This document shows, one piece after another, positions 40,565-62,728 of a stretch of DNA of 64,000 bases. Below the pieces are notes generated by a model that was not told where the DNA came from, ran no database searches, and worked only from the letters and a program-made list of their open reading frames with translations. How positions within the stretch are numbered: position 1 is the first letter of the stretch; the number at the start of each line of letters is the position of its first letter. Position numbers and translations under genes: made by a program. This stretch comes from a virus. Taxonomy: Duplodnaviria > Caudoviricetes. The stretch is taken from positions 32,001-96,000 of IMG/VR virus record IMGVR_UViG_3300032321_000388, one strand, 5' to 3'.

Positions 40565-41620
40565 ATGGCTTTACCTTCTAGCGGAAGAATTAAACTAAGT
40601 GATGTTAATACCGAATTAGGATTATCATCTACTACACGCGTATCTTTAGGTCAAGCTACTGTTCGAACTTTAACTGGTGTTGTATCTGGTAAAATTGCTT
40701 TAGCTGCAAATGGATATGGCAAGGCAAATAGAGTATCATTAAGCAGTACATTTTCTAGTAATACAGCTAATGCTACAGTATCTGTTTCTACATTAATTGG
40801 CTATATAGCTGGAAAAACTGATTTAACAATTACAGTTAATAGTGGAGTATATGTTTATTCTACAGATACAACAGCTCCTGGATTAATTATATCTAATGCT
40901 GCAGCAGGCGATACTGTAACATTAGTTAATAATGGCTATATCATGGGTAAAGGCGGTAATGGAGCAGGCGTAGGTGGTCAAGCTTATGGTACAACTGGTG
41001 AAGTTGGAAAACCTGGTGGTTCTGCTATATACTTGGGATGCAATATTTCTCTTACTAATAATAGTTATATTGGTGGTGGTGGCGGTGGAGGAGCATCAGT
41101 TGGTAGATCACGCAGCGGTGGAGCTGGAGGAGCGGGTGGAGGAGATGCCGGTGATGCTAGCTTATCATATCCTACTTACTTAGGTGGTCGTGGCGGGGCT
41201 CCTGGTGCCGCTGGAACAAATGGTTCTAATACCGGTGTACCTACCCATGGAGGCGGTGGAAGAATAATGCCAGGTGTCGGTGGTGGACAAAATTCTAGTG
41301 GTGGTCTTGGAGGCGGAGCAGGAGGTGGGGCTGGACCAAGAGCATATAATACTTCAGCATCACCTTCTTTACAATTTGCTGGATACTCTTCAGGAGGAAG
41401 TGGCGGTGATGCTGCAGGATTAGCATACCTTATAAATTATGAACATTCTTGCGGTGGTGGAGGAGGTTGGGGAGCAAAAGGTGGAGACGCCCAATCTGGA
41501 GGAACAGGATCATATCGAAACTTACTAATGTCAGGCGGAGCTGGCGGTAAAGGCATAGAGCTTAATGGTTATTCAGTCACATATGTAACAACAGGTACAA
41601 TTTATGGAGCGGTTAGTTAG
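40565..41620 (+). CDS. Glycine-rich fibre-tip adhesin (gp38-like)
   Basis: MALPSSGRIKLSDVNTELG N-terminus; LVNNGYIMGKGGNG, GGGGGGG, GGGGGWG, GTIYGAVS. Confidence 0.8.
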   Translation: MALPSSGRIKLSDVNTELGLSSTTRVSLGQATVRTLTGVVSGKIALAANGYGKANRVSLSSTFSSNTANATVSVSTLIGYIAGKTDLTITVNSGVYVYSTDTTAPGLIISNAAAGDTVTLVNNGYIMGKGGNGAGVGGQAYGTTGEVGKPGGSAIYLGCNISLTNNSYIGGGGGGGASVGRSRSGGAGGAGGGDAGDASLSYPTYLGGRGGAPGAAGTNGSNTGVPTHGGGGRIMPGVGGGQNSSGGLGGGAGGGAGPRAYNTSASPSLQFAGYSSGGSGGDAAGLAYLINYEHSCGGGGGWGAKGGDAQSGGTGSYRNLLMSGGAGGKGIELNGYSVTYVTTGTIYGAVS

Positions 41621-47173: not shown

Positions 47174-49942
47174 ATGCCATCATCATATTCAATGTTTAAA
47201 CAGAAGTTCAAAAAGACCATCGCGGATGCGGTGTATCAGGAAGTAACTTCTAAGACAGCTCGATACTATCATTGGTTTGGTAAAGAAAATACATGGCAAG
47301 ATTTCTTAAGTCCATTTATTCCATCTGGCACTACTGATACTCCTGGAGCTCCTTCAGAAAATTTCCGTTATGAACTTCATGTTCGTCGAGACATTCTTAC
47401 TGCCAAATTAATTAAACCTTCTGATGTATCATACGTTACTAGAAGAGTTGATTGGACTAATGGAACTGTTTTTGACATATATGATGATGCTTATGAAGCT
47501 ACAAATGGATATGGCTATGGTCCAGCCTATTCTGGAGCAATTCGTTTAGAAGATGCAAACTTCTATGTACTTACAAATGAATATAATGTTTATAAATGTA
47601 TAGATAATAATGATAATTCTCCATCTACGTATCAACCTACTGGTACTACACCTGATGTATTTGAAACAACCGATGGTTATAAATGGAAATTTATGTATGG
47701 TATTCCTGTTTCATTAAGAAATAGATTCTTATCATCAACATATATGCCAGTTTCAACATCTTTAAAAGCACAGTTCTATTCTTCAGGTTCTATTAATAAT
47801 ATTGCTATTGAGAATGGTGGAGGAGGATATAATCCAGGAACTACCATAGCAGTTATTAGTGGTGATGGTTATAAAGAATTTAATCCATATTTAATTAGTT
47901 CTATCACAACTACAAATGGTGGTCAAGGATTTACTACAATTCCAGCAATTACAATTGAACCTCCTTTTTCAAGTGCGATTGCATGGTCATCTGCAGCAAA
48001 TGTTCCTCTTGGAAGTTATGTTAGCTATTTAAATCCAGCCACATTAAAAACAAATTTCTATTACGTTTTATCTGGTACTAAATTAGGTACTTCAGGTCCT
48101 ATTCATACAACTGGAACTATTACAAATGGTGGCACTCAATTAAGATATTCTGGAACTACAGCAACAGCAGAATGTGTATTATCAAGCGGTGCAGTTGGTA
48201 CTGTATCTTTAATTGACGGCGGTTATGGTTATCAAGATGCACCAACTGTTACAGCAGATTATCCTATTACAAAAGATGCTGATTGGGTTACATTAACAAC
48301 AGCAGTATTAGGTGATATTCTTAAATATGATGGAAGATATTACGAAGTTACTTTAGCTGGAACTACAGGAGCTTCTGGTCCAACTCATACAACAGGCGAA
48401 GTTTTAAATGGTTCATCAAAATTAACATACTTAGGTAAAGATGCAGTATTAACTCCAGTTATTGTAAAAACTGAAGCAGAAATATCATTAGTTATTTCTC
48501 CTGGAATTGATAGCTTATATTCAGTATCTATAGGTTTGACCGGTTCTAAATACGTAGAAATTCCAACGGTAACAATTGATGCTCCAGGTTCTGGAATACA
48601 AGCTGAAGCAGAAGCTTCTATAGCGGGTGGTAAAGTAACTCTTATTAGTGTTATTAATCCTGGAAATGGTTATATATCTGTCCCGTTAATAACAATAACA
48701 AATCCTAAAATTACTTTTAATGCTGCCACAGGTCTTAACGATGTAACAGAAGTTATTAGTTATACTGGGCATAGACTAGTTACCGGCGATGCCGTTGTAT
48801 ATAACAATGGAGGTGGAACATCTATTGGTGGTTTAACATCAACAAATACTTATTATGTTATTAAAGTAAATGATGATTCATTTAGACTTGCCACATCAGC
48901 AATAAATGCAACAAATGGAACATATATTAATCTAACAGATGGCATTGGTTCAGCCCATACTTTAACACTTACATCTGGAAATGCTACTGCAACAGCAATT
49001 CTTGGTACTGGTGGTGAAATTGTAGGATATAGCATTGATGATGCTGGTATTGGATATACTAATGCAAATATTGAGATTGTTGATTCATCTGGATCTGGTT
49101 CAGGAGCAGTTTTAGTTCCTGACTTCTCAGTTGGTAATGTTGATACATTACAGGCAAACGTTGAGCTGCTTGCAGTTCCAGGTTCTATTGAACTTATTAA
49201 AGTAGTAGACGGTGGTACTGGATACGGAGGAGCAACTGCTACTATTTTAGGAGATGGCATTGGAGCTACCGCTGATATTATTTGTTCGGGTGGTAAGGTA
49301 ACTAAAGTAGTCATAACAAATCCAGGTTCTGGTTACACATGGACAGATGTTCAGATTACAGGTAATACAGGTTCATCTGGAGCAGTTGTAAGAGCTATTA
49401 TGTCTCCATTAGGAGGTCATGGTTCAAATGCTATTGATGAGCTAAATGCCAATTCAATTGTATTCTATACATCTATATCACGAGATAAGAATCAAGGCAT
49501 TGAAATTAACAATGACTATCGTAAGGTAGGTCTTGTTCGTAACTTTAAACAGTTTGGTTCTAATAGAAGATTTACAGATGACATTGGATCTGGTTGTGTA
49601 CTTATTACTGGTACTTTTGATCCAACAAAAATTCAATATGATATGTTATTATTAAAAGATGGATATAAGAAGTATCGTGTTGTTGACTTTACAGATACTC
49701 AGATCTTATTATCAGTATTCAATAACTTTTCTGTTTCTATTGGTGATACATTAGTTACAGATCCTACAGATGCTGGATTAATTACAGCCCCATCCGTAAT
49801 TGCACAGAATATTATTGTAACAAGTGTATCAGAACGAACTATCGATCAATTCTCAGGCGACTTCTTGTTCTTCTCAGTAAGAGAACCATATTCTCCTACA
49901 GCAGAGCAAATTATTACCGTAAGAACTGTCCTAACAATATAA
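47174..49942 (+). CDS. 8: Baseplate wedge gp8-like, extended
   Basis: RRVDWTNG..YDD, FYVLTNEYNVYKCIDN, DGYKWKFMY, SPLGGHGSNAIDEL, NDYRKVGL. Confidence 0.82.
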   Translation: MPSSYSMFKQKFKKTIADAVYQEVTSKTARYYHWFGKENTWQDFLSPFIPSGTTDTPGAPSENFRYELHVRRDILTAKLIKPSDVSYVTRRVDWTNGTVFDIYDDAYEATNGYGYGPAYSGAIRLEDANFYVLTNEYNVYKCIDNNDNSPSTYQPTGTTPDVFETTDGYKWKFMYGIPVSLRNRFLSSTYMPVSTSLKAQFYSSGSINNIAIENGGGGYNPGTTIAVISGDGYKEFNPYLISSITTTNGGQGFTTIPAITIEPPFSSAIAWSSAANVPLGSYVSYLNPATLKTNFYYVLSGTKLGTSGPIHTTGTITNGGTQLRYSGTTATAECVLSSGAVGTVSLIDGGYGYQDAPTVTADYPITKDADWVTLTTAVLGDILKYDGRYYEVTLAGTTGASGPTHTTGEVLNGSSKLTYLGKDAVLTPVIVKTEAEISLVISPGIDSLYSVSIGLTGSKYVEIPTVTIDAPGSGIQAEAEASIAGGKVTLISVINPGNGYISVPLITITNPKITFNAATGLNDVTEVISYTGHRLVTGDAVVYNNGGGTSIGGLTSTNTYYVIKVNDDSFRLATSAINATNGTYINLTDGIGSAHTLTLTSGNATATAILGTGGEIVGYSIDDAGIGYTNANIEIVDSSGSGSGAVLVPDFSVGNVDTLQANVELLAVPGSIELIKVVDGGTGYGGATATILGDGIGATADIICSGGKVTKVVITNPGSGYTWTDVQITGNTGSSGAVVRAIMSPLGGHGSNAIDELNANSIVFYTSISRDKNQGIEINNDYRKVGLVRNFKQFGSNRRFTDDIGSGCVLITGTFDPTKIQYDMLLLKDGYKKYRVVDFTDTQILLSVFNNFSVSIGDTLVTDPTDAGLITAPSVIAQNIIVTSVSERTIDQFSGDFLFFSVREPYSPTAEQIITVRTVLTI

Positions 49943-55171: not shown

Positions 55172-55378
55172 ATGAAGATTAAAGTAGAAAATGAATCATT
55201 GGTAAGAGATACAGGAACTAATGCTATCTTAGAGACTGATGTAAATAAATTGCAGAAATCTAGAGCTATTAGACAAGCATTAAAAGAAAAAGAAAACAAA
55301 TTAGATTATTTGATTGATAAAATAAATAAACTAGAAACAATTATCGACGGGATGACAAATGGCAAGCTTAACACTTAG
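55172..55378 (+). CDS. Small conserved coiled-coil protein
   Basis: KVENESLVRDTGTNAIL; typical neighbour of the DUF4815-like gene. Confidence 0.65.
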   Translation: MKIKVENESLVRDTGTNAILETDVNKLQKSRAIRQALKEKENKLDYLIDKINKLETIIDGMTNGKLNT

Positions 55379-56552
55379 ACTAGGCGCAACAGGTGCAACA
55401 GGAGTTAAAAACGCTCCACTCACTAATGCTGAGATTGATACTAACTTTAGTAATCTTAATACTGAAGTTGGAACTAAATTAGCTTCAGCATCTTATACAG
55501 CTGCTGATGTTTTAACAAAGATTAAAACTGTTGATGGTACTGGTTCTGGTCTAGATGCAGATCTTTTAGATGGTCTTAATGCAGTTTCAGGTGCTACTGG
55601 AGCAAGTATTGTATCACGTGATTCCTCAGGTAATTTTGCTTCAAATCAAATTACAGCTGCACAATTTATTGGTCCATTATATTTAGGTACGGCTGATACG
55701 ATTGTATTTGAAGGTTCAACTGCTGATGCTTATGAGACATCATTAACTGTAACAGATCCAACTGCTGATAGAACAATTACATTTCCAGATTTAACAGGAA
55801 CAGTTGTTGTTTCTGGCGCTGGTGGAGCTATTACAAATGATATGCTTGCTGGTTCTATAGCAAATTCTAAATTAGTTAATAGTTCTATTACTCTTGATGG
55901 TAACACTGTTGCATTGGGTGGATCATTAACTATTGGAGCAGGATTAAAGAGCGCAGATAACGTATGGACAGGCACACAAACATTTAGAGATAATAAGTTT
56001 ACTATCACAGATGATGTTGATAATACAAAGGTATTAGCTTTACAACTATCAAACATTACTACTGGTACAACAAGAACACTTACTATTCCAGATGCAACTG
56101 GAACTATTGCAATTGGCCAACAAGTACTTACTAGCTCAAATGTGCAATTTGCTAATACACAACTCAGTTCATTAGGAGTTGGAACTGCTTCATCAGGTAA
56201 TGCCGGTGAGATTCGTGCAACCGGTAATATATTTGCATTCTATACGTCAGATAAAAATTTAAAAGAAAATATTGTTGCTATACCAAATGCTTTACAAAAA
56301 GTAGATCAAATTAGAGGTGTAACATTTGATTGGACAGATGCTGAGATTACTAAACGCGGTGGAGAAGATGGCTATTTTATCCGTAAAAATGATGTCGGTG
56401 TTATTGCTCAAGAAGTTGAAGCAGTATTACCAGAAGTAGTTGGCACAAATGGTGATGGATATAAAGCTGTCAAATATGAATTAATTATTCCACTACTCAT
56501 AGAAGCAATTAAGGAATTAAAAGCTGAAGTTGAAACATTGAAATCTAAATAA
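55359..56552 (+). CDS. Tail fibre with C-terminal S74 chaperone domain
   Basis: APLTNAEIDTNF anchor; GSGLDADLLDG; YTSDKNLKENI...GVIAQEVE. Confidence 0.85.
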   Translation: MASLTLRLGATGATGVKNAPLTNAEIDTNFSNLNTEVGTKLASASYTAADVLTKIKTVDGTGSGLDADLLDGLNAVSGATGASIVSRDSSGNFASNQITAAQFIGPLYLGTADTIVFEGSTADAYETSLTVTDPTADRTITFPDLTGTVVVSGAGGAITNDMLAGSIANSKLVNSSITLDGNTVALGGSLTIGAGLKSADNVWTGTQTFRDNKFTITDDVDNTKVLALQLSNITTGTTRTLTIPDATGTIAIGQQVLTSSNVQFANTQLSSLGVGTASSGNAGEIRATGNIFAFYTSDKNLKENIVAIPNALQKVDQIRGVTFDWTDAEITKRGGEDGYFIRKNDVGVIAQEVEAVLPEVVGTNGDGYKAVKYELIIPLLIEAIKELKAEVETLKSK

Positions 56553-56567
56553 TTAAAGGGTTATATA

Positions 56568-58022
56568 ATGATATTTGAAATACTCGGTGAGCGTAGTGCT
56601 GGAGATACTAAAGTTTTCTATTATGATAATATGGAAAACATACTAAAAGATGCTGATGGAAATGTGTTTGAATTTTCTGAAAAGCCTACAATACCAGATC
56701 AGTATTTAAAAGAATATAAATCTTTTGATAAAGATCACCCATTAAAGAAGTCTAATAAGATACAATTATTAAAGATTCAAATGGGTTTAAGTTGCAATTA
56801 TTCATGTGACTATTGTTCGCAAAAGTTTGTAGAGCGCGCACCAGAAACTAATAAAGATGATATTAGTGAGTTCATGCAAAAACTAGAAGTACTAGAATTT
56901 GATGAAAAGAACGGATTAAAGATTGAATTTTGGGGTGGTGAACCATTAGTTTATTGGAAAACATTAAAACCACTTGCAGAAGCATTATACGAAAAATTTG
57001 CATCATGGGAAAGAAAACCCCAGTTTAGTATTATTACTAATGGATCTATCTTAAGCGATGAGATCATTGATTGGTTAATGAAGATGGAATTTTCTGTTGC
57101 TATATCACATGATGGTCCTGGTCAAAGTGTTAGAGGTCCAGATCCATTTGATGATCCAAAACAGAAAGAAACTATTCTCGGATTCTATAGAATGATGACA
57201 AGATTAGGTAAAGGATTTAGCTTTAATGCTATGCTAAATTCTAAGAATAAGAGTCGCAAAGCAATATATGACTGGTTTGTAAAATTAACTGGTGATGAGA
57301 ATATTAAACTTGGAGAAGGTTCTATAGTTGATGCTTATGATGAAGATGGCATAACTAATTCATTACAATCTCTTCAAGAACATTTTGAATTTAGACGTAC
57401 TGCAGTATCTGATATACTACAGACAGAAGGTAAAATTGGATTCTTTGGTCAATTACAAAAGATTGACAATTTTACTAGCGGTGTACTAGCTCATAGAAAT
57501 GCTAAATATGTCGGTCAAAAATGCGGCATGGATGACGAACATACTATTGCTGTAGATTTACGAGGTAATGTATTAACATGTCAAAATGTTAGTGCATTGG
57601 AAACATCTAAAAATGATGAATCACATCTTGGTGGCAATTTAGACGATTATGATAATGTTGAACTTAAATCAGTTACTCATTGGAGTAACCGTAAAGAATG
57701 TTCAAGTTGTCCTGTATTACATATTTGTCAAGGAGCTTGTATGTTCCTTGATAAGAAGTTTTGGGATATATCGTGTGCTAATGCTTATTCAGATAACGTG
57801 GCATTATTTGCTTTGGCTATCCATAAAATGACTGGGTACATTCCAAAGCTAATTAAGAATGATACATTACCATTAGAAAGACAAGATATATTTGGTACAA
57901 TGTATAAGCATGAAGAAAAAGAAACTAAAAAGATTATACCTATAAAAGTATTCAACGAGAAAATAATGAAAATTGATGATATTGAAGTTTATGGTAAATC
58001 TGTTATTAAAGAAATTAATTAA
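56568..58022 (+). CDS. Radical SAM enzyme with SPASM domain (peptide/protein maturase type)
   Basis: CNYSCDYC, FWGGEPL, ITNGS, ISHDG; SPASM Cys set KCG...LTC...CSSC-x5-C-x3-C...SC. Confidence 0.93.
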   Translation: MIFEILGERSAGDTKVFYYDNMENILKDADGNVFEFSEKPTIPDQYLKEYKSFDKDHPLKKSNKIQLLKIQMGLSCNYSCDYCSQKFVERAPETNKDDISEFMQKLEVLEFDEKNGLKIEFWGGEPLVYWKTLKPLAEALYEKFASWERKPQFSIITNGSILSDEIIDWLMKMEFSVAISHDGPGQSVRGPDPFDDPKQKETILGFYRMMTRLGKGFSFNAMLNSKNKSRKAIYDWFVKLTGDENIKLGEGSIVDAYDEDGITNSLQSLQEHFEFRRTAVSDILQTEGKIGFFGQLQKIDNFTSGVLAHRNAKYVGQKCGMDDEHTIAVDLRGNVLTCQNVSALETSKNDESHLGGNLDDYDNVELKSVTHWSNRKECSSCPVLHICQGACMFLDKKFWDISCANAYSDNVALFALAIHKMTGYIPKLIKNDTLPLERQDIFGTMYKHEEKETKKIIPIKVFNEKIMKIDDIEVYGKSVIKEIN

Positions 58023-58032
58023 GTAGGGAATT

Positions 58033-58917
58033 ATGACATTACAAACAACTGGAACACTAGCAGTATCTGATATTAATACCGAAATAGGTCTTAGTTCTAC
58101 ATACTCTGACGATCTAGCATTTTTAAATAATAAAATTGTGGCTGCTCAAAGACCAACTACTCCTAATTTTGGTGCATTTTACGGATTAACTCATTTTCAA
58201 AATAGCACACAAGGTAATTGTGATAATGCAAATGCTGCTGGTGTAAATTGTAATTGTGGAAATGTTAATTGTTCTGCCACAGCTAACTGCGCAGGTATTA
58301 ACTGTACTAACTGTGATACTCAACCCTGGTTACAAACTAATTGTAACTGTGCTTGTACTTATAACTGCACCAATAATCAAAATTGCTTCTCATATAACTG
58401 CAATTGCAGTAAGATTATCTGTACAAAACTATATGAGATTGGAATGTTGCCTAAAGATGTGTTTGAAGCAGATCAAGCATTTGGCGATCTATTAAAAGTA
58501 AAACATCCAGACGTTTATAATGGTTATATTGCATGGGCTCAAATTGTTGTAGATTGGATGAGTGGCAAGGGTCCTAAGATGATGCCTTGGATGTCTGATG
58601 AAGAGTTTAGTAAAGCTGCACAAAATTGGTCTACTTCATGGGCAGAAACTATTGCTACTCCATGGGCTGATTATATGGCATATAAGATGGGTCTAAAAGA
58701 AACTATCAATAAGACTGGATTTGTATTAATGATGGTTGGTATACCAATTAGTAAAGTTGTTGGTGTATGGCAACGGATATTTGGTAAGAGTACTAAACCT
58801 ACAGGATTTGGTAAAGGCTTAATGCTTATTGGTATATTTGTCTTACTAAAAGCAATAGTTGAAATTGGTAAATTATTTGGTCAAAGGACTGAATCATTAG
58901 CTGGGAGAAATGCATAA
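58033..58917 (+). CDS. Asn-Cys repeat protein with fibre-tip N-terminus; putative maturase substrate
   Basis: N-terminus SDINTEIGLSST resembles the adhesin at 40565; 14 Cys in residues 62-125; KIIC-initiated helical domain; hydrophobic C-terminus. Confidence 0.8.
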   Translation: MTLQTTGTLAVSDINTEIGLSSTYSDDLAFLNNKIVAAQRPTTPNFGAFYGLTHFQNSTQGNCDNANAAGVNCNCGNVNCSATANCAGINCTNCDTQPWLQTNCNCACTYNCTNNQNCFSYNCNCSKIICTKLYEIGMLPKDVFEADQAFGDLLKVKHPDVYNGYIAWAQIVVDWMSGKGPKMMPWMSDEEFSKAAQNWSTSWAETIATPWADYMAYKMGLKETINKTGFVLMMVGIPISKVVGVWQRIFGKSTKPTGFGKGLMLIGIFVLLKAIVEIGKLFGQRTESLAGRNA

Positions 58918-59267
58918 TGGCTGAAGAATTAGAAAACGTAGCAGTAAAAACAATAACTGCAAAATGTGGGCATGATGTTATATATAGACATGACCATATC
59001 ATGGAATATTGGAATGAGCAAGTATATGCTCGAACATTAGCTCTATCTCCAGAGGAAAAAGATAGATACTTCCAAATGGTAACAGACTATGGTGATATTA
59101 TCAAGAAACTATTAGATGATGATAATCATGTTATCTATGATCATGTGGCTGGTAATCCATGGGTAAATTTAGAGTCTGCCGCAGAAGAGGGTGTTATTGT
59201 AGATCGAGATAAACCAAAACAGTTGTTAGATGAATATGATGCATGGAAGGCTCGACAACCTCAATAA
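58917..59267 (+). CDS. Hypothetical protein in the rSAM cassette
   Basis: Translationally coupled (TAATG) to the Cys-rich gene. Confidence 0.6.
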   Translation: MAEELENVAVKTITAKCGHDVIYRHDHIMEYWNEQVYARTLALSPEEKDRYFQMVTDYGDIIKKLLDDDNHVIYDHVAGNPWVNLESAAEEGVIVDRDKPKQLLDEYDAWKARQPQ

Positions 59268-59978
59268 TTGAAAGACTATATTATGAATGACATGACAGAT
59301 AAAGAACGTTATCATTGGTATCAAAATGCGCAAAACTTATTTTGGAAAAGCCCAATATGGGAAATACAGACAAAATTTGATGAAGCATTTAATGAACAGT
59401 TGCTTGAAGAGATATATGATATAGGTAAAAATATAACTTTAGGTATAGATAAAGATCCACATAATAGTATATGGGATTATAGTAGACCTAACTTAGATAT
59501 CTTAAAGCAAGAGATTATTGATATAGTTGAGACAACCATTATTAAGAACATACCTGAAGTCAGGATGTTAAATTTAAAAGGTTGTGAACATTTCATGGGT
59601 TGGATTAATGTTAGAGAACCTGGTGAAAGATTAGAAATACACGGACATACAGAATCAGCCATAGCAGCAACATATTATATCAAAGCAAAAGAAGGATGTG
59701 GAGATTTAGTAGCATATGATACTGCTGGAGCTATTGATTGGGATAATAATACCTTAAGTGGTAGTCCTTATGTAAGAGCAAGAAGATTTAAACCTGTAGA
59801 GGGTAGATTGATATTCTTTCCATCATATGTATTACATGGAGTAGATGATAATAAATCAGATGACTTACGAATATCATTAAGTACGGATTTACGTAAAGTA
59901 GTTGATAAGAATTCTTCAAATACTGTTATATTAAAATCTTGGGCTGGTAGAATGGCTAAGATTAAAGAGTGGAAATAA
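59268..59978 (+). CDS. 2OG-Fe(II) oxygenase (TIGR02466-like)
   Basis: WINV, IHGH, ATYYI, GRLIFFPSYVLHGV, RISLS. Confidence 0.85.
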   Translation: MKDYIMNDMTDKERYHWYQNAQNLFWKSPIWEIQTKFDEAFNEQLLEEIYDIGKNITLGIDKDPHNSIWDYSRPNLDILKQEIIDIVETTIIKNIPEVRMLNLKGCEHFMGWINVREPGERLEIHGHTESAIAATYYIKAKEGCGDLVAYDTAGAIDWDNNTLSGSPYVRARRFKPVEGRLIFFPSYVLHGVDDNKSDDLRISLSTDLRKVVDKNSSNTVILKSWAGRMAKIKEWK

Positions 59979-60505
59979 TGTTTTGTAAATTAAACAATTC
60001 ATTTGAGAAACCTCTCTATATAGTAACAGAAGGATTAAAGACATTTACTGGTGTAGATGATAAAGGCATAGACTACAAAAAGATCTGGAGTCCAGATGCT
60101 GAAAAATTATTATCAGTATTACCAAAGAGATATTGGGATGACTTTCATTTGACAGTCATGACTATTAATAGACCAATACCTCCTCATACTGATACTGAGA
60201 TCATCACTACTATTAATTTTTATATTGAGACTGGTGGAGCAAGAACTGTATTTTATGAACCTATAGTTGATGAACCACGCACGTTTCAAATAGAGAATCA
60301 AACTGATGGTTACATATATTATCTAGAAGATTTAAAAGAAGTTGGCAGTTTTGTAGCAAAAGATTTTGAAATCTGGTGTTTAGATGTTAAAAAGATACAT
60401 GCTGTTGAAGGTAATGTATCCATAAGAAAAGCTGTAACATTAGGCACATTCAAACACAAGTATGAAGATGTTGTAGAGATGTTTAAGGAAACTGGATGTT
60501 TGTAA
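59978..60505 (+). CDS. 2OG-Fe(II) oxygenase-like protein (HxD...H)
   Basis: PPHTD, TINFYI, LDVKKIHAV, RKAVTL. Confidence 0.75.
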   Translation: MFCKLNNSFEKPLYIVTEGLKTFTGVDDKGIDYKKIWSPDAEKLLSVLPKRYWDDFHLTVMTINRPIPPHTDTEIITTINFYIETGGARTVFYEPIVDEPRTFQIENQTDGYIYYLEDLKEVGSFVAKDFEIWCLDVKKIHAVEGNVSIRKAVTLGTFKHKYEDVVEMFKETGCL

Positions 60506-61065
60506 AACTAAAGAATAGTTTTAAAACTCCGTTATTCATAGCAATAAATGAATTAGAATCTTGGGCAGGTATAGACGGTAAAGGAGTTCATCATAAAAAG
60601 ATATGGAGTCCTGACCATGAACAGTTATATAGTGTATTGCCTAAAAGGTATTGGGATGATTTTGAATTAACAGTAATGACTATTAATTCTATTTTATTAC
60701 CGCATCAAGATAATGATTTAATAACTACTATTAATTTTTATATAGATCCTGGTAATTATAGAACAGTATTCTATGAATCAAAAGATGGTGTAAAGATTTC
60801 AAGACCTGAGATGCAAGTAACTGGAACTAATGTTCCATTAGAACAGCAAATAGGTTATGTTAAAGCTGTATATCAGCTTGAAGATGTTAAAGAATTAGAT
60901 AGTTTCATTGCTAGACCTAATGAAGCATACTTATTAGATGTTACAAAGATTCATAATGTTGAACCAATTGGCGAAACAACTGTAAGAAAAGCTATAGCTT
61001 TAAGAACTAAAAAGTACACATATAATGAAGTATATCATATGTTAAATGAAACTGGAAACCTATAA
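60496..61065 (+). CDS. 2OG-Fe(II) oxygenase-like protein, tandem paralog
   Basis: LPHQD, TINFYI, LDVTKIHNV, RKAIAL; shares KKIWSPD and VLPKRYWDDF with the upstream gene. Confidence 0.75.
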   Translation: MFVKLKNSFKTPLFIAINELESWAGIDGKGVHHKKIWSPDHEQLYSVLPKRYWDDFELTVMTINSILLPHQDNDLITTINFYIDPGNYRTVFYESKDGVKISRPEMQVTGTNVPLEQQIGYVKAVYQLEDVKELDSFIARPNEAYLLDVTKIHNVEPIGETTVRKAIALRTKKYTYNEVYHMLNETGNL

Positions 61066-61074
61066 GGATTAATT

Positions 61075-61863
61075 ATGTTTTATGAAAAACTAAATTTAAA
61101 CATTGATATTGAAAAGCTTAGAAAAGAAGTAGTTGACAATGTATTTCCACTAGGAGATCAAGTCATTCAAGGTGAAGAGTATGAAACTCCTCAGTATCAT
61201 GGTTTTGGTGGATGGAGTATTACTACTCGTACAGGCGATTGGAAAGATGGATGGGAAACTTTTCAAACAGAACAAGGTGAAGTGTTAGAAAAGTTCTTGC
61301 CTACTCCTGAATTAGTCACTAAGTCTCTTAAGTACTTTAATATGGCACATAGCTTAGAGCATGATAAACCAACTCAAGCTTATGTTGGAGAGATTCGTAA
61401 GGTAGTAGAACAAATAACAGAATTAGGTTTGACTCCACGAAGAGTAAGAGTTGCATGTCTTAAAGCTGGTTGTAAAAGTTTAGTACATAAAGATGCAGAC
61501 ACATCTGAGTATATGGCTAGATTGCATATACCATTATGGACAGATCCAAAAGCAGTGTTTATTGCAGAAAATAAACATCTACATATGGAAACTGGTTCTG
61601 CTTACATGGTTTGGGTAAATATTTGGCATCAAATTAGAAATGATTCTGACACAGACAGATATCATCTAATAATGGATGTATATGATACTAAACATATTAC
61701 TGAGCACTTTAAATATATGGGCGATTTTGCTCAATTAGAAAACTTTACTCGTGGTTATAGAGAGCAAATAGAAGCAGCAGAATTAACAGAAGATGATAAA
61801 GAATTTTTTAAAGCTATAAAAGCTAGGTATACTACAAAGAGTACAATAGAACACGCACTATAA
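61075..61863 (+). CDS. Aspartyl/asparaginyl beta-hydroxylase-family oxygenase
   Basis: RVRVACL, LVHKD, RLHIPL.T, WHQIRN, DRYHLIMD. Confidence 0.82.
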   Translation: MFYEKLNLNIDIEKLRKEVVDNVFPLGDQVIQGEEYETPQYHGFGGWSITTRTGDWKDGWETFQTEQGEVLEKFLPTPELVTKSLKYFNMAHSLEHDKPTQAYVGEIRKVVEQITELGLTPRRVRVACLKAGCKSLVHKDADTSEYMARLHIPLWTDPKAVFIAENKHLHMETGSAYMVWVNIWHQIRNDSDTDRYHLIMDVYDTKHITEHFKYMGDFAQLENFTRGYREQIEAAELTEDDKEFFKAIKARYTTKSTIEHAL

Positions 61864-61866
61864 ATA
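61859..61866 (+). promoter_or_regulatory. Late promoter
   Basis: TATAAATA at the end of the oxygenase cassette. Confidence 0.65.
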
Positions 61867-61894: not shown

Positions 61895-62728
61895 ATGGCA
61901 ACGATAACACTAAGAAGTATTAAAGGATCACCTCTAACTATTACAGAGATGGACGATAATTTCAGTAATCTTAATACTGATGTAGGTAATAAAGTATCAA
62001 CTTCAACCTATACTGGTTCGGATATACTAACAAAATTACTTACAGTTGATGGATCTGGTTCTGGATTAGATGCTGACTTATTAGATGGAAAAAATACAGC
62101 TTCAACAGATACTATTAATACTATAGTTGCTAGAGATGGTTCTGGTAATTTTGCTGCCAATCAAATTACAGCAACTACTTTTACTGGATCATTAGTAGTT
62201 CCTACAACTGGTTCTGTTTCTTTATCTGGATCAAGTTCAGGTTCTATTACTCTTGCTGTTCCTTCTTCTGCTGGAACAAACACAATTACATTCCCAGCTA
62301 CTACAGGTAATGTGGTAACTACAGGAGATTCTGGTACAGTTACAAACACAATGCTTGCTGGTTCAATAGCAAACTCTAAACTTGCTAATAGTACAATTAC
62401 TATTGATGGTAATGCAGTATCTCTTGGTGGATCTGTAAGTATTTCATCAGGTAATATTACTTGGACTGGTGCTCAAGTATTTAGAGATAATAAATGGACA
62501 ATGACTGATAATACAGATACTACTAAAGCATTTGTATTTGAAGCATCAGGTATTGGAGCTAATACAACAAGAACTCTAACAGTTCCTAATTCAGATGGAA
62601 CTATTGCTACACAAACATATGTTCAAAATTATATTCAAACTGCAGGTTTTAATTCACAGGGAACAAAAACAATTTCTTCTAGTACTCCATCAGGCGGTGT
62701 TGATGGCGACATTTGGTATCAGGTATAA
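61895..62728 (+). CDS. Tail fibre protein, paralog of 55359..56552
   Basis: GSPLTITEMDDNF, DGSGSGLDADLLDG, MLAGSIANSKL, FRDNK, TTRTLT; ends GVDGDIWYQV. Confidence 0.8.
   Translation: MATITLRSIKGSPLTITEMDDNFSNLNTDVGNKVSTSTYTGSDILTKLLTVDGSGSGLDADLLDGKNTASTDTINTIVARDGSGNFAANQITATTFTGSLVVPTTGSVSLSGSSSGSITLAVPSSAGTNTITFPATTGNVVTTGDSGTVTNTMLAGSIANSKLANSTITIDGNAVSLGGSVSISSGNITWTGAQVFRDNKWTMTDNTDTTKAFVFEASGIGANTTRTLTVPNSDGTIATQTYVQNYIQTAGFNSQGTKTISSSTPSGGVDGDIWYQV

What the first reader, a model, noticed from the sequence alone, without database searches (positions are those of the whole stretch)
56568..61863. Candidate new system: RiPP-like post-translational modification cassette for a virion fibre-tip protein (rSAM/SPASM + Asn-Cys substrate + four 2OG oxygenases)
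Seen: a tightly coupled seven-ORF run inside the tail-fibre module. It comprises a radical SAM enzyme with CxxxCxxC and a full SPASM Cys set, then a protein with a dense Asn-Cys tract, an unknown ORF, and four Fe(II)/2OG oxygenases, one of the Asp/Asn beta-hydroxylase family. Known: SPASM rSAM maturases (CteB/SCIFF, PapB, NxxcB, QhpD) sit next to Cys-rich substrates and form thioether crosslinks. NxxcB links Cys to an Asn beta-carbon, and QhpD staples a protein subunit. AspH-type enzymes hydroxylate Asn/Asp in Cys-rich domains. Inference: the phage chemically matures a structural or receptor-binding protein (thioether staples plus hydroxy-Asn), in effect a RiPP displayed on the virion. Possible purposes are a rigid tip, a metal-binding surface, or mimicry of a ligand taken up by a host receptor. 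I know of no described phage system like this.
Basis: partly seen in the sequence, partly recalled or inferred. Interest (0 to 1): 0.93.

Follow-up and report, generated by a model that had tools for sequence, protein, structure and literature searches.

The report
Radical-SAM cassette for Asn-Cys phage protein
An uncultured T4-like phage carries a radical-SAM enzyme and four oxygenases beside a protein built around Asn-Cys pairs, and the same enzyme sits next to tail-fibre proteins ending in Asn-Cys runs in many unrelated phages and prophages, so these viruses probably modify a fibre or adhesin part chemically, which I found described in no paper.

Summary
Seven tightly coupled + strand ORFs lie at 56568-61863:
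- a radical SAM/SPASM enzyme;
- a 294-aa protein with 15 Cys, 13 of them preceded by Asn;
- a small unknown ORF;
- four Fe(II)/2OG-type oxygenases, two called by Pfam and two by invariant HxD..H..R plus a confident DSBH model.

- In 49 of 54 divergent loci (rSAM 35-61% identical, mostly prophages of freshwater Burkholderiales), a same-strand ORF within 4 kb upstream carries an (Asn/Asp)-Cys run, usually ending the protein.
- All 57 such ORFs among 9,983 six-frame ORFs lie in that position.
- 52 of 53 ORF2-family loci carry the rSAM.
- The enzyme's nearest relatives are peptide- and protein-modifying SPASM enzymes (PapB profile, TigE, CteB, anSME).
- An ORF4-type oxygenase also travels with the rSAM in 33 divergent loci.

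Three things are not shown: the chemistry (thioether crosslinks are my best guess), any hydroxylation, and virion incorporation of ORF2. In several close relatives the cassette sits among auxiliary genes, not fibres.

I found no paper describing this. This scan has already noted the same pairing on other genomes.

The parts
55359..56552 (+). Tail-fibre gene with a C-terminal intramolecular chaperone domain. This is context, immediately upstream of the cassette.
   Evidence: Pfam Peptidase_S74 E = 7.5e-16. Many PHROG tail-fibre families match. The gene is conserved upstream of the rSAM only in L005 and L006.
56568..58022 (+). Radical SAM enzyme with a SPASM domain (484 aa). C76, C80 and C83 bind the SAM cluster. 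C319, C338, C378, C381, C387, C391 and C403 form the seven-Cys SPASM set.
   Evidence: PF04055 and TIGR04085 score above their cutoffs. phrog_1802 E = 9.5e-70. Cys conservation in 44 relatives. The profile matches TigE at 2.8e-23, CteB at 4.1e-19 and anSME at 1.4e-18.
58033..58215 (+). ORF2 N-terminal module (residues 1-61). It is conserved in the family, and its first 23 residues resemble the N-terminus of the gp38-like adhesin at 40565.
   Evidence: tblastn within the window gives 57% identity over 23 aa, E = 4.5e-5. The own-genome search gives E = 5.9e-4. Alignment A1.
58216..58410 (+). ORF2 Asn-Cys tract (residues 62-126), the presumed substrate core.
   Evidence: 14 Cys lie in the tract, 13 after Asn. 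Length varies among relatives around conserved positions G61, N62, C63, L100, Q101, N111, C112, C123 and C125. AlphaFold gives no confident fold (pLDDT about 30).
58411..58917 (+). ORF2 C-terminal helical domain starting KIIC, with a hydrophobic end. It is a portable add-on and is not tied to the rSAM.
   Evidence: pLDDT 80-87, all helices. No PDB fold match. Absent from the ORF2 homologues in L048, L049 and L069. Present without an Asn-Cys tract or rSAM on a 1497-aa virion protein in L262 and on a Gly-rich protein of Synechococcus phage SynMITS9220M01.
58917..59267 (+). ORF3 (116 aa), unknown function, fast-evolving, kept in most relatives.
   Evidence: No match in Pfam, PHROG, NCBIfam or the Atlas. 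tblastn finds it in 53 of 69 loci. It is part of the minimal cassette in L005 and L006.
59268..59978 (+). ORF4, a PF13759-type 2OG-Fe(II) oxygenase. This is the oxygenase type that accompanies the rSAM in divergent lineages as well.
   Evidence: PF13759 E = 1.2e-16. phrog_81 E = 1.8e-25. hhalign to the family next to the rSAM in 33 divergent loci gives 99.1%, E = 1.3e-18.
59969..60505 (+). ORF5, a small DSBH oxygenase with an HxD..H..R signature.
   Evidence: Invariant H73, D75, H144 and R153. Model pLDDT 94. Foldseek top hits are NO66, MINA53 and YcfD.
60496..61065 (+). ORF6, a tandem paralogue of ORF5.
   Evidence: 97 identical of 192 aligned columns against ORF5, with the same invariant residues.
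61075..61863 (+). ORF7, an oxygenase of the Asp/Asn beta-hydroxylase family (PF05118).
   Evidence: PF05118 scores 40.6 bits against a cutoff of 22.6. H138, D140 and H185 are conserved in 29 relatives. Present in 68 of 69 ORF2-family loci with enough downstream sequence.
61895..62728 (+). Fibre-like gene, a paralogue of 55359-56552 over its N-terminal part. This is context, immediately downstream.
   Evidence: 127 identical of 254 aligned columns. PHROG tail-fibre hits. A TATAAATA motif lies at 61859-61866.
40565..41620 (+). Gly-rich gp38-like adhesin whose N-terminus resembles that of ORF2 (context).
   Evidence: phrog_2056 'tail fiber protein; host specificity' E = 8.2e-6. N-terminal match.

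Best explanation
The radical SAM/SPASM enzyme (ORF1) modifies the Asn-Cys tract of ORF2 after translation. The most likely reaction is a set of thioether (ranthionine-type) bridges from Cys sulfur to a side-chain carbon of nearby Asn or Asp, as PapB, QhpD and CrpC make in their substrates.

One or more of the co-encoded oxygenases probably hydroxylate residues of the same tract. The ORF4 type is the best candidate, and the AspH-like ORF7 is the next.

The product is a redox-proof, cross-linked knob that belongs to a fibre or adhesin of the virion. In other phages the same enzyme acts on a short (Asn/Asp)-Cys tail at the C-terminus of true tail-fibre proteins.

Shown here: the genetic pairing, the enzyme families and the fibre context in other lineages. 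Inferred: that ORF2 is the substrate, the bond type, the hydroxylation and virion incorporation.
For: Forward co-occurrence:
- 49 of 54 divergent loci with at least 3.5 kb upstream have a same-strand ORF with three or more consecutive (N/D)C dipeptides within 4 kb of the rSAM.
- All 57 motif-bearing ORFs, out of 9,983 six-frame ORFs (1.14 million residues), are in that position.
- The run ends within 18 residues of the stop in 56 of the 57.

Reverse co-occurrence: 52 of 53 ORF2-family loci carry the rSAM. The one exception has only the C-terminal domain and no Asn-Cys tract.

The pairing recurs in unrelated cultured phages:
- Achromobacter phage JWF gp028 is a fibre protein with an Asn-Cys run followed by a Hint domain, two genes before its rSAM.
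- Ralstonia phage RSP15 gp048 is a side fibre with an Asn-Cys end.
- Ralstonia phage RP12 has a 65-aa ORF with an Asn-Cys end ahead of three rSAM genes.

Sampled carriers are fibre proteins or follow one. L056 lies just after a J-type central fibre, L059 and L084 follow PHROG fibre genes, and L056 and L116 hit fibre families themselves.

Enzyme class:
- The best NCBIfam profile is the PapB ranthipeptide maturase, followed by other Cys-peptide maturases.
- The nearest solved structures are TigE, CteB and anSME.
- The clade has seven SPASM Cys, and it lacks a Cys where anSME has a second Cys between the first two SPASM cysteines. CteB and TigE lack it too.
- Direct binding of the substrate Cys to an auxiliary cluster is reported for PapB and Tte1186 (PMC10177961).

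Substrate:
- The residue before Cys in 38 distinct tails is Asn 160 times and Asp 29 times out of 248.
- Cys-Asp links are the QhpD chemistry (PMC13692751). Cys-Asn links by NxxcB are from my own knowledge.
- The tract has no predicted fold, as expected for a substrate shaped by modification.
- CrpC/CrpA shows that a SPASM enzyme can cross-link a 28.8-kDa Cys-rich protein (PMC13692751).

Oxygenase link: the ORF4 family matches the family beside the rSAM in 33 divergent loci.
Against: - No biochemical or mass-spectrometric data exist.
- The enzyme scores far below the cutoff of every named NCBIfam maturase family (for example PapB, 83 bits against 340).
- No RiPP recognition element was detected, and only about 60 residues precede the radical SAM core.
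- Cys mostly follows Asn directly. That spacing differs from the known motifs (NxxC, CxxxD), although six NxxC motifs are present.
- ORF2's virion role rests on a 23-residue similarity and on gene position. In many close relatives the cassette lies beside PhoH, purD-like and small genes, not fibres.
- ORF5, ORF6 and ORF7 types are linked to the tract only within this phage clade. Tandem oxygenase arrays occur in cyanophages without any such tract (PMC2938197).
Confidence: 0.5

Rival explanations
1. The rSAM does act on the Asn-Cys tract, but it does not make thioethers. It might instead oxidise Cys to formylglycine as anSME does, make carbon-carbon links, epimerise residues, or prepare the tract to hold a metal or iron-sulfur centre.
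For: By profile the enzyme is about as close to anSME (1.4e-18) and to the cyclopropyl synthase TigE (2.8e-23) as to the thioether former CteB (4.1e-19). It fails every equivalog cutoff. The adjacent Asn-Cys spacing matches no characterised thioether motif. CrpA has been suggested to bind metals (PMC13692751).
Against: The GYW motif that defines cyclopropyl synthases is absent in 0 of 44 relatives (motif from PMC10878394). The tract has no Arg, so the sulfatase motif used by anSME is absent (sequence). Asn and Asp alternating with Cys are the side chains used as acceptors by QhpD (PMC13692751) and, from my own knowledge, by PapB and NxxcB.
Confidence: 0.25
2. ORF2 is not a virion part. The cassette makes a processed, RiPP-like product or a membrane-anchored factor inside the infected cell (for example a metal binder or an exclusion or lysis-timing factor), with the N-terminal module acting as leader and the helical domain as follower or anchor.
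For: ORF2 has a leader-core-follower layout with a hydrophobic C-terminal domain. Close relatives carry the cassette among auxiliary metabolic genes (PhoH, purD-like), and membrane fatty-acid desaturases are inserted between the rSAM and ORF2. RP12 has a 65-aa peptide-like precursor.
Against: The cassette contains no protease or exporter. The N-terminus resembles that of a gp38-type adhesin. In 49 divergent loci the run sits on proteins of about 110-620 aa lying upstream of the rSAM, and every sampled case was a tail-fibre gene or directly followed one. The helical domain is optional and also occurs on large virion proteins.
Confidence: 0.15
3. The adjacency is incidental. The Asn-Cys tract is a metal-binding or disulfide module that needs no enzyme, and the rSAM and oxygenases are unrelated auxiliary genes collected in a variable genome region.
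For: Cyanophage-type genomes gather tandem dioxygenases in variable regions (PMC2938197). The cassette's position varies among relatives.
Against: Co-occurrence holds in both directions across rSAM identities from 35% to 89%, and across siphovirus-like prophages, an ackermannvirus and T4-like phages. The motif is found nowhere else in 1.14 million residues of six-frame translation.
Confidence: 0.05

Closest known systems
CrpC/CrpA of Methanococcus voltae (TIGR04463 family; PMC13692751)
   Same: An rSAM/SPASM enzyme encoded beside a Cys-rich protein rather than a short peptide. It installs ranthionine crosslinks in the Cys-rich C-terminal part of that protein, and the modified region has a low-confidence predicted fold.
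   Different: It is archaeal and cellular, not viral. CrpC has a recognition element and uses the substrate's N-terminal domains. Its motifs differ (Cys precedes varied acceptors). The window's enzyme scores 45.7 bits against the family cutoff of 525.
QhpD/QhpC of quinohemoprotein amine dehydrogenase (TIGR03906)
   Same: An rSAM/SPASM enzyme that makes Cys-Asp and Cys-Glu thioethers inside a protein subunit (as summarised in PMC13692751).
   Different: The substrate is an enzyme subunit with a leader bound by a recognition element. The window's enzyme scores 69.9 bits against a cutoff of 453. There is no repeat tract and no phage context.
Ranthipeptide maturases PapB/PapA, CteB/SCIFF and NxxcB/NxxcA
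   Same: These are SPASM enzymes acting on Cys-rich cores with repeated motifs. PapB is the best NCBIfam profile (E = 1.6e-23). The clade resembles CteB in lacking a Cys where anSME has a second one between the first two SPASM cysteines. Asn and Asp acceptors are from my own knowledge and were not read here.
   Different: Their substrates are short secreted peptides with leaders. The motifs are NxxC or CxxxD rather than adjacent Asn-Cys. All equivalog cutoffs are missed by a wide margin. No recognition element was detected.
TigE/TvgB cyclopropyl synthases (PDB 8VPO; PMC10878394)
   Same: This is the nearest solved structure by profile (E = 2.8e-23). It is an RS-SPASM enzyme with seven SPASM Cys that acts on a repeated motif.
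   Different: The defining GYW motif is absent (0 of 44). TigE's substrate has Ile or Val, not Cys.
Cyanophage tandem dioxygenase arrays (Syn9; Iyer et al. 2010, PMC2938197)
   Same: Several unrelated 2OG-type oxygenases in tandem in a T4-like phage, including beta-hydroxylase-type members. That paper proposes hydroxylation of collagen-like and tail-collar proteins in bacteria.
   Different: The paper describes no rSAM and no Asn-Cys protein, and it proposes a secondary-metabolite role for the phage arrays.

Membership tests
Radical SAM superfamily | A CxxxCxxC motif binding the SAM-cleaving 4Fe-4S cluster, and a Pfam PF04055 match above the gathering score. | tested here: met
   C76, C80 and C83 are invariant in 44 relatives. 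PF04055 scores 37.3 bits against 29.5.
SPASM subfamily | A C-terminal seven-Cys set including CxxCx5Cx3C for two auxiliary clusters, and a TIGR04085 match. | tested here: met
   C319, C338, C378, C381, C387, C391 and C403 are conserved in at least 43 of 44 relatives. TIGR04085 scores 34.2 bits against 27.
Named thioether maturase equivalogs (PapB NF047865, SCIFF TIGR03974, QhpD TIGR03906, CrpC-type TIGR04463) | A score above the curated equivalog cutoff. | tested here: not met
   83.4 against 340, 57.1 against 425, 69.9 against 453 and 45.7 against 525 bits. The clade is a separate, unnamed branch.
RiPP-type SPASM maturases | An N-terminal RiPP recognition element (PqqD-like) that binds a leader peptide. 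| tested here: inconclusive
   No PqqD-like Pfam hit. Only about 60 residues precede the core. The TigE alignment starts at TigE residue 67, near the end of its recognition element at residues 3-85 (PMC10878394). No structure of the enzyme was predicted.
Thioether-forming activity | Loss of 2 Da per crosslink and loss of alkylatable Cys in the product. | not testable with these tools
   This requires expression and mass spectrometry.
Anaerobic sulfatase-maturating enzyme (TIGR03942) | The equivalog score, a substrate motif of Cys/Ser-x-Pro/Ala-x-Arg, and fully Cys-ligated auxiliary clusters. | tested here: not met
   50.4 against 349 bits. The Asn-Cys tract contains no Arg. The clade lacks a Cys where anSME has a second one between the first two SPASM cysteines.
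Cyclopropyl synthases (TigE/TvgB) | A GYW motif whose Tyr ligates auxiliary cluster I (PMC10878394). | tested here: not met
   GYW is present in 0 of 44 relatives.
NxxC-type RaS-RiPP precursors | Repeated NxxC motifs in a short leader-bearing peptide next to its rSAM. | tested here: inconclusive
   ORF2 has six NxxC motifs, but most Cys follow Asn directly. The protein is 294 aa, and no family model was available for comparison.
Fe(II)/2OG oxygenases | A double-stranded beta-helix fold, a metal triad (HxD/E..H) and a basic residue for 2OG. | tested here: met
   ORF4 matches PF13759 and ORF7 matches PF05118, both above cutoff. ORF5 and ORF6 have invariant H73, D75, H144 and R153 with a DSBH model at pLDDT 94. 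ORF4 shows H125-x-H127..H190 with R201-x-S203 rather than HxD.
gp38-type tail-fibre adhesin | PF05268, or an adhesin fold with Gly-rich motifs, plus an N-terminal fibre-docking domain. | tested here: not met
   ORF2 has no Pfam or PHROG hit. Only the first 23 residues resemble the gp38-like protein at 40565.

The most novel reading that the evidence does not exclude
Many tailed phages and prophages use a dedicated radical SAM/SPASM enzyme, often with a 2OG oxygenase, to install a ladder of covalent crosslinks in an (Asn/Asp)-Cys tail at the host-contacting end of a fibre or adhesin. This would be RiPP-type chemistry displayed on a virus particle and a new class of virion post-translational modification. 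The window shows its most elaborate form: a long tract, four oxygenases and a detachable helical domain.
Probability: 0.5. Interest if true: 0.9.

Novelty: new variant of a known kind. Interest (0 to 1): 0.8.

Why it matters
Covalent enzymatic modification of phage receptor-binding fibres by radical chemistry has, as far as I could find, not been described.

If it is real, it adds a layer to how phages build stable or specific host-recognition tips in a reducing cytoplasm, where disulfides cannot form. It would also matter for engineering fibres, because a swapped fibre may need its enzyme. It widens the reach of SPASM 'maturases' from peptides to virion proteins. And it gives an unnamed enzyme clade a testable substrate. 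That clade is abundant in metagenomes and prophages: 285 clusters at 50% identity with E <= 1e-30.

Two cultured phages, JWF and RSP15, make the idea directly testable.

Tried and rejected
- DNA-level search of the cassette against annotated phages: no match.
- Fold search of the ORF2 model against the PDB: nothing significant for the helical domain. The Atlas search on the helical domain gave only unnamed viral clusters below 0.9, and the search on ORF3 gave no usable hit.
- Profile comparisons of ORF3, ORF5/6, ORF7 and the ORF2 C-domain with each other and with the partner families of divergent loci: only ORF4 against the partner oxygenase family matched. RSP15 gp046 matched none above 50%.
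Nothing was run.
- Literature searches found no description of an rSAM acting on phage fibres or of Asn-Cys repeat tails. A cyanophage paper (PMC12801897) lists a 'radical SAM maturase' only as a presumed antibiotic gene.
- TATAAATA late-promoter motifs are not enriched overall (11 found, 12.8 expected). The operon reading therefore rests on gene spacing and on the lack of + strand terminator-like sites inside the cassette, and it is only an inference.
- Considered and dropped: membership in the cyclopropyl synthases (no GYW motif) and in the anSME family (no sulfatase motif).

Full report
**What is in the window**

The window is part of a 118.6-kb viral contig estimated at 74% complete. It carries a T4-like structural module: a baseplate hub and lysozyme, wedge subunits, collagen-like fibres and a gp38-like Gly-rich adhesin.

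Gene junctions run from a 10-nt overlap to a 15-nt gap. No + strand terminator-like site falls inside the cassette. The nearest T4-type late-promoter motifs are at 49938 and 61859. The block is therefore probably read together with the upstream structural genes, but this is an inference.

Two paralogous fibre genes flank the block (127 identical of 254 aligned columns). The upstream one ends in a Peptidase_S74 chaperone domain.

**The enzymes**

ORF1 is a radical SAM enzyme with a SPASM domain.
- PF04055 and TIGR04085 both score above their cutoffs.
- Across 44 relatives at 28-62% identity, exactly ten Cys are conserved: C76, C80 and C83, plus seven in the SPASM region.
- Its best NCBIfam profile is the ranthipeptide maturase PapB (E = 1.6e-23), followed by other Cys-peptide maturases, QhpD and anSME. 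All of these are far below their equivalog cutoffs, so this is an unnamed clade.
- Against solved structures, the family profile matches TigE (8VPO, 2.8e-23), CteB (5WGG, 4.1e-19) and anSME (1.4e-18).
- The GYW motif that defines TigE-type cyclopropyl synthases (PMC10878394) is absent in all 44 relatives.
- The clade has no Cys where anSME has a second one between the first two SPASM cysteines. CteB and TigE lack it too.
- No recognition element was detected, and only about 60 residues precede the core.

The four oxygenase calls hold up.
- ORF4 is a PF13759 oxygenase and ORF7 a PF05118 (Asp/Asn beta-hydroxylase family) oxygenase, both above cutoff.
- ORF5 and ORF6 are tandem paralogues without a Pfam hit.
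- Their family has invariant H73, D75, H144 and R153.
- The ORF5 model (pLDDT 94) has a double-stranded beta-helix fold, and its best PDB matches are 2OG protein hydroxylases.

**The Asn-Cys protein**

ORF2 has 15 Cys, 13 of them directly after Asn. No other ORF in any frame of the window comes close. An alignment of 25-34 relatives shows three parts.
- An N-terminal module of about 60 residues.
- An Asn-Cys tract of variable length around fixed positions.
- A conserved helical domain that starts KIIC and ends in hydrophobic helices.

AlphaFold gives the tract no fold (pLDDT about 30) and the helical domain a confident one (80-87) that has no PDB counterpart.

The first 23 residues resemble the N-terminus of the gp38-like adhesin at 40565 (E = 4.5e-5 within the window).

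The helical domain is an optional add-on.
- ORF2 homologues in Polynucleobacter, Paraburkholderia and Hyphomicrobiaceae contigs stop right after the tract.
- The same domain ends a 1497-aa virion protein in L262, and a Gly-rich protein of a Synechococcus phage, with no tract and no rSAM nearby.

**Is the pairing real?**

Within the phage's own clade, the order rSAM, ORF2, ORF3, oxygenases is kept in nearly all 40 first-round loci. The minimal form, seen in L005 and L006, is rSAM, ORF2, ORF3 and the AspH-like gene.

Starting instead from ORF2, 52 of 53 loci with enough upstream sequence carry the rSAM. The one exception has only the helical domain.

The stronger test uses distant relatives. The family has 285 clusters at 50% identity with E <= 1e-30. 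A profile scan of one genome per prokaryotic species found 251 relatives. These were mostly in freshwater Burkholderiales such as Limnohabitans and Polynucleobacter, some on contigs of up to 1.8 Mb, so they are true prophages.

The kept set comprised 80 loci, with rSAM identity mostly 35-61%.
- 49 of the 54 with at least 3.5 kb upstream have a same-strand ORF with three or more consecutive (Asn/Asp)-Cys dipeptides within 4 kb upstream.
- All 57 ORFs with that motif, out of 9,983 six-frame ORFs, lie there and none lie elsewhere.
- In 56 of the 57 the run ends within 18 residues of the stop.

The carriers belong to several unrelated protein families. Sampled ones are tail-fibre proteins or follow one, in one case just after a J-type central fibre.

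Cultured phages show the same arrangement.
- JWF gp028 is a fibre with an Asn-Cys run followed directly by a Hint domain.
- RSP15 gp048 is a side fibre with an Asn-Cys end.
- RP12 has an unannotated 65-aa ORF with such an end ahead of three rSAM genes.

Two more families travel with the pair in divergent loci.
- An unknown protein of about 280 aa, related to RSP15 gp047, in 37 loci.
- In 33 loci, an oxygenase of the same family as window ORF4 (hhalign 99.1%, E = 1.3e-18).

**How it most likely works**

Because the tail sits on unrelated protein bodies, the enzyme probably recognises the tail itself rather than a leader.

Asn or Asp precedes 189 of 248 tail Cys. Cys-Asp links are what QhpD makes (PMC13692751). 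Cys-Asn links by NxxcB are from my own knowledge. PapB and Tte1186 bind the substrate Cys at an auxiliary cluster (PMC10177961). CrpC was recently shown to cross-link a 28.8-kDa Cys-rich protein (PMC13692751).

I therefore favour a ladder of thioethers that locks an otherwise unfolded tract. This would be useful for a protein made in a reducing cytoplasm and then exposed outside the cell. The oxygenases would add hydroxyl groups.

None of this chemistry has been tested. The adjacent Asn-Cys spacing has no characterised precedent.

**Caveats**

In many close relatives the cassette lies beside PhoH, a purD-like gene or small ORFs rather than fibres. Some relatives have membrane fatty-acid desaturase genes between the rSAM and ORF2. 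ORF2's place on the virion is therefore an inference. Tandem oxygenase arrays are also known in cyanophages without any such tract (PMC2938197).

**Novelty**

Seven literature searches found no description of this pairing.

Notes from this scan report the same rSAM and Asn-Cys-tail pairing on several other genomes. I used them only as leads and tested what I reuse.

Noticed in passing
window 58411-58917; L262:3014-7507; L001:6669-8519: The helical domain starting KIIC is a portable C-terminal module. It ends a 1497-aa virion protein (a homologue of the window's 1732-aa protein, which is split there into three genes). It also ends a Gly-rich protein of Synechococcus phage SynMITS9220M01, where it follows long poly-Pro and poly-Arg runs. 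Its function is unknown; it might be a membrane anchor or a removable assembly domain.
   Followed up: partly
L010:3886-4605; L016:4378-5819; L030:3602-5048; L032:8452-9892; L014:4889-5626; L041:855-2296: One or two membrane fatty-acid desaturase genes (PF00487, three His boxes) are inserted between the rSAM and the ORF2 homologue in some relatives.
   Followed up: partly
L004:960-1154 (Ralstonia phage RP12, NC_041911): An unannotated 65-aa ORF with a ribosome-binding site ends in an Asn-Cys run. It sits just upstream of gp075 and three radical SAM genes (gp076, gp077, gp079).
   Followed up: partly
L003:4793-6244 (JWF gp028); L055:5223-6353: Fibre proteins in which the Asn-Cys run is followed directly by a Hint (self-cleaving) domain. 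This suggests that the run becomes the mature C-terminus after autoprocessing.
   Followed up: partly
L056:6483-7340 and 36 other loci; L002:5314-6129 (RSP15 gp047): An unknown protein family of about 280 aa lies immediately downstream of the tail-bearing fibre gene in 37 divergent loci. It has no Pfam or PHROG match.
   Followed up: partly
L118:6702-7790: A second, shorter radical SAM gene sits between the tail-bearing gene and the main rSAM in one Rhodospirillaceae locus.
   Followed up: no
L049:7530-7985: An ORF2 homologue in a Paraburkholderia contig carries an acidic Gly/Asp-rich tail after the Asn-Cys tract, in place of the helical domain.
   Followed up: no
window 55359-56552 and 61895-62728: The two fibre genes flanking the cassette are paralogues over their N-terminal parts, so the cassette looks like an insertion between duplicated fibre genes. 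A TATAAATA motif at 61859 overlaps the ORF7 stop.
   Followed up: partly
L033:6178-6966; L039:4012-5325; L032:6387-6986: In close relatives the genes just upstream of the rSAM are PhoH, a purD-like ATP-grasp enzyme, or a further 2OG oxygenase (PF13640), not fibre genes.
   Followed up: partly
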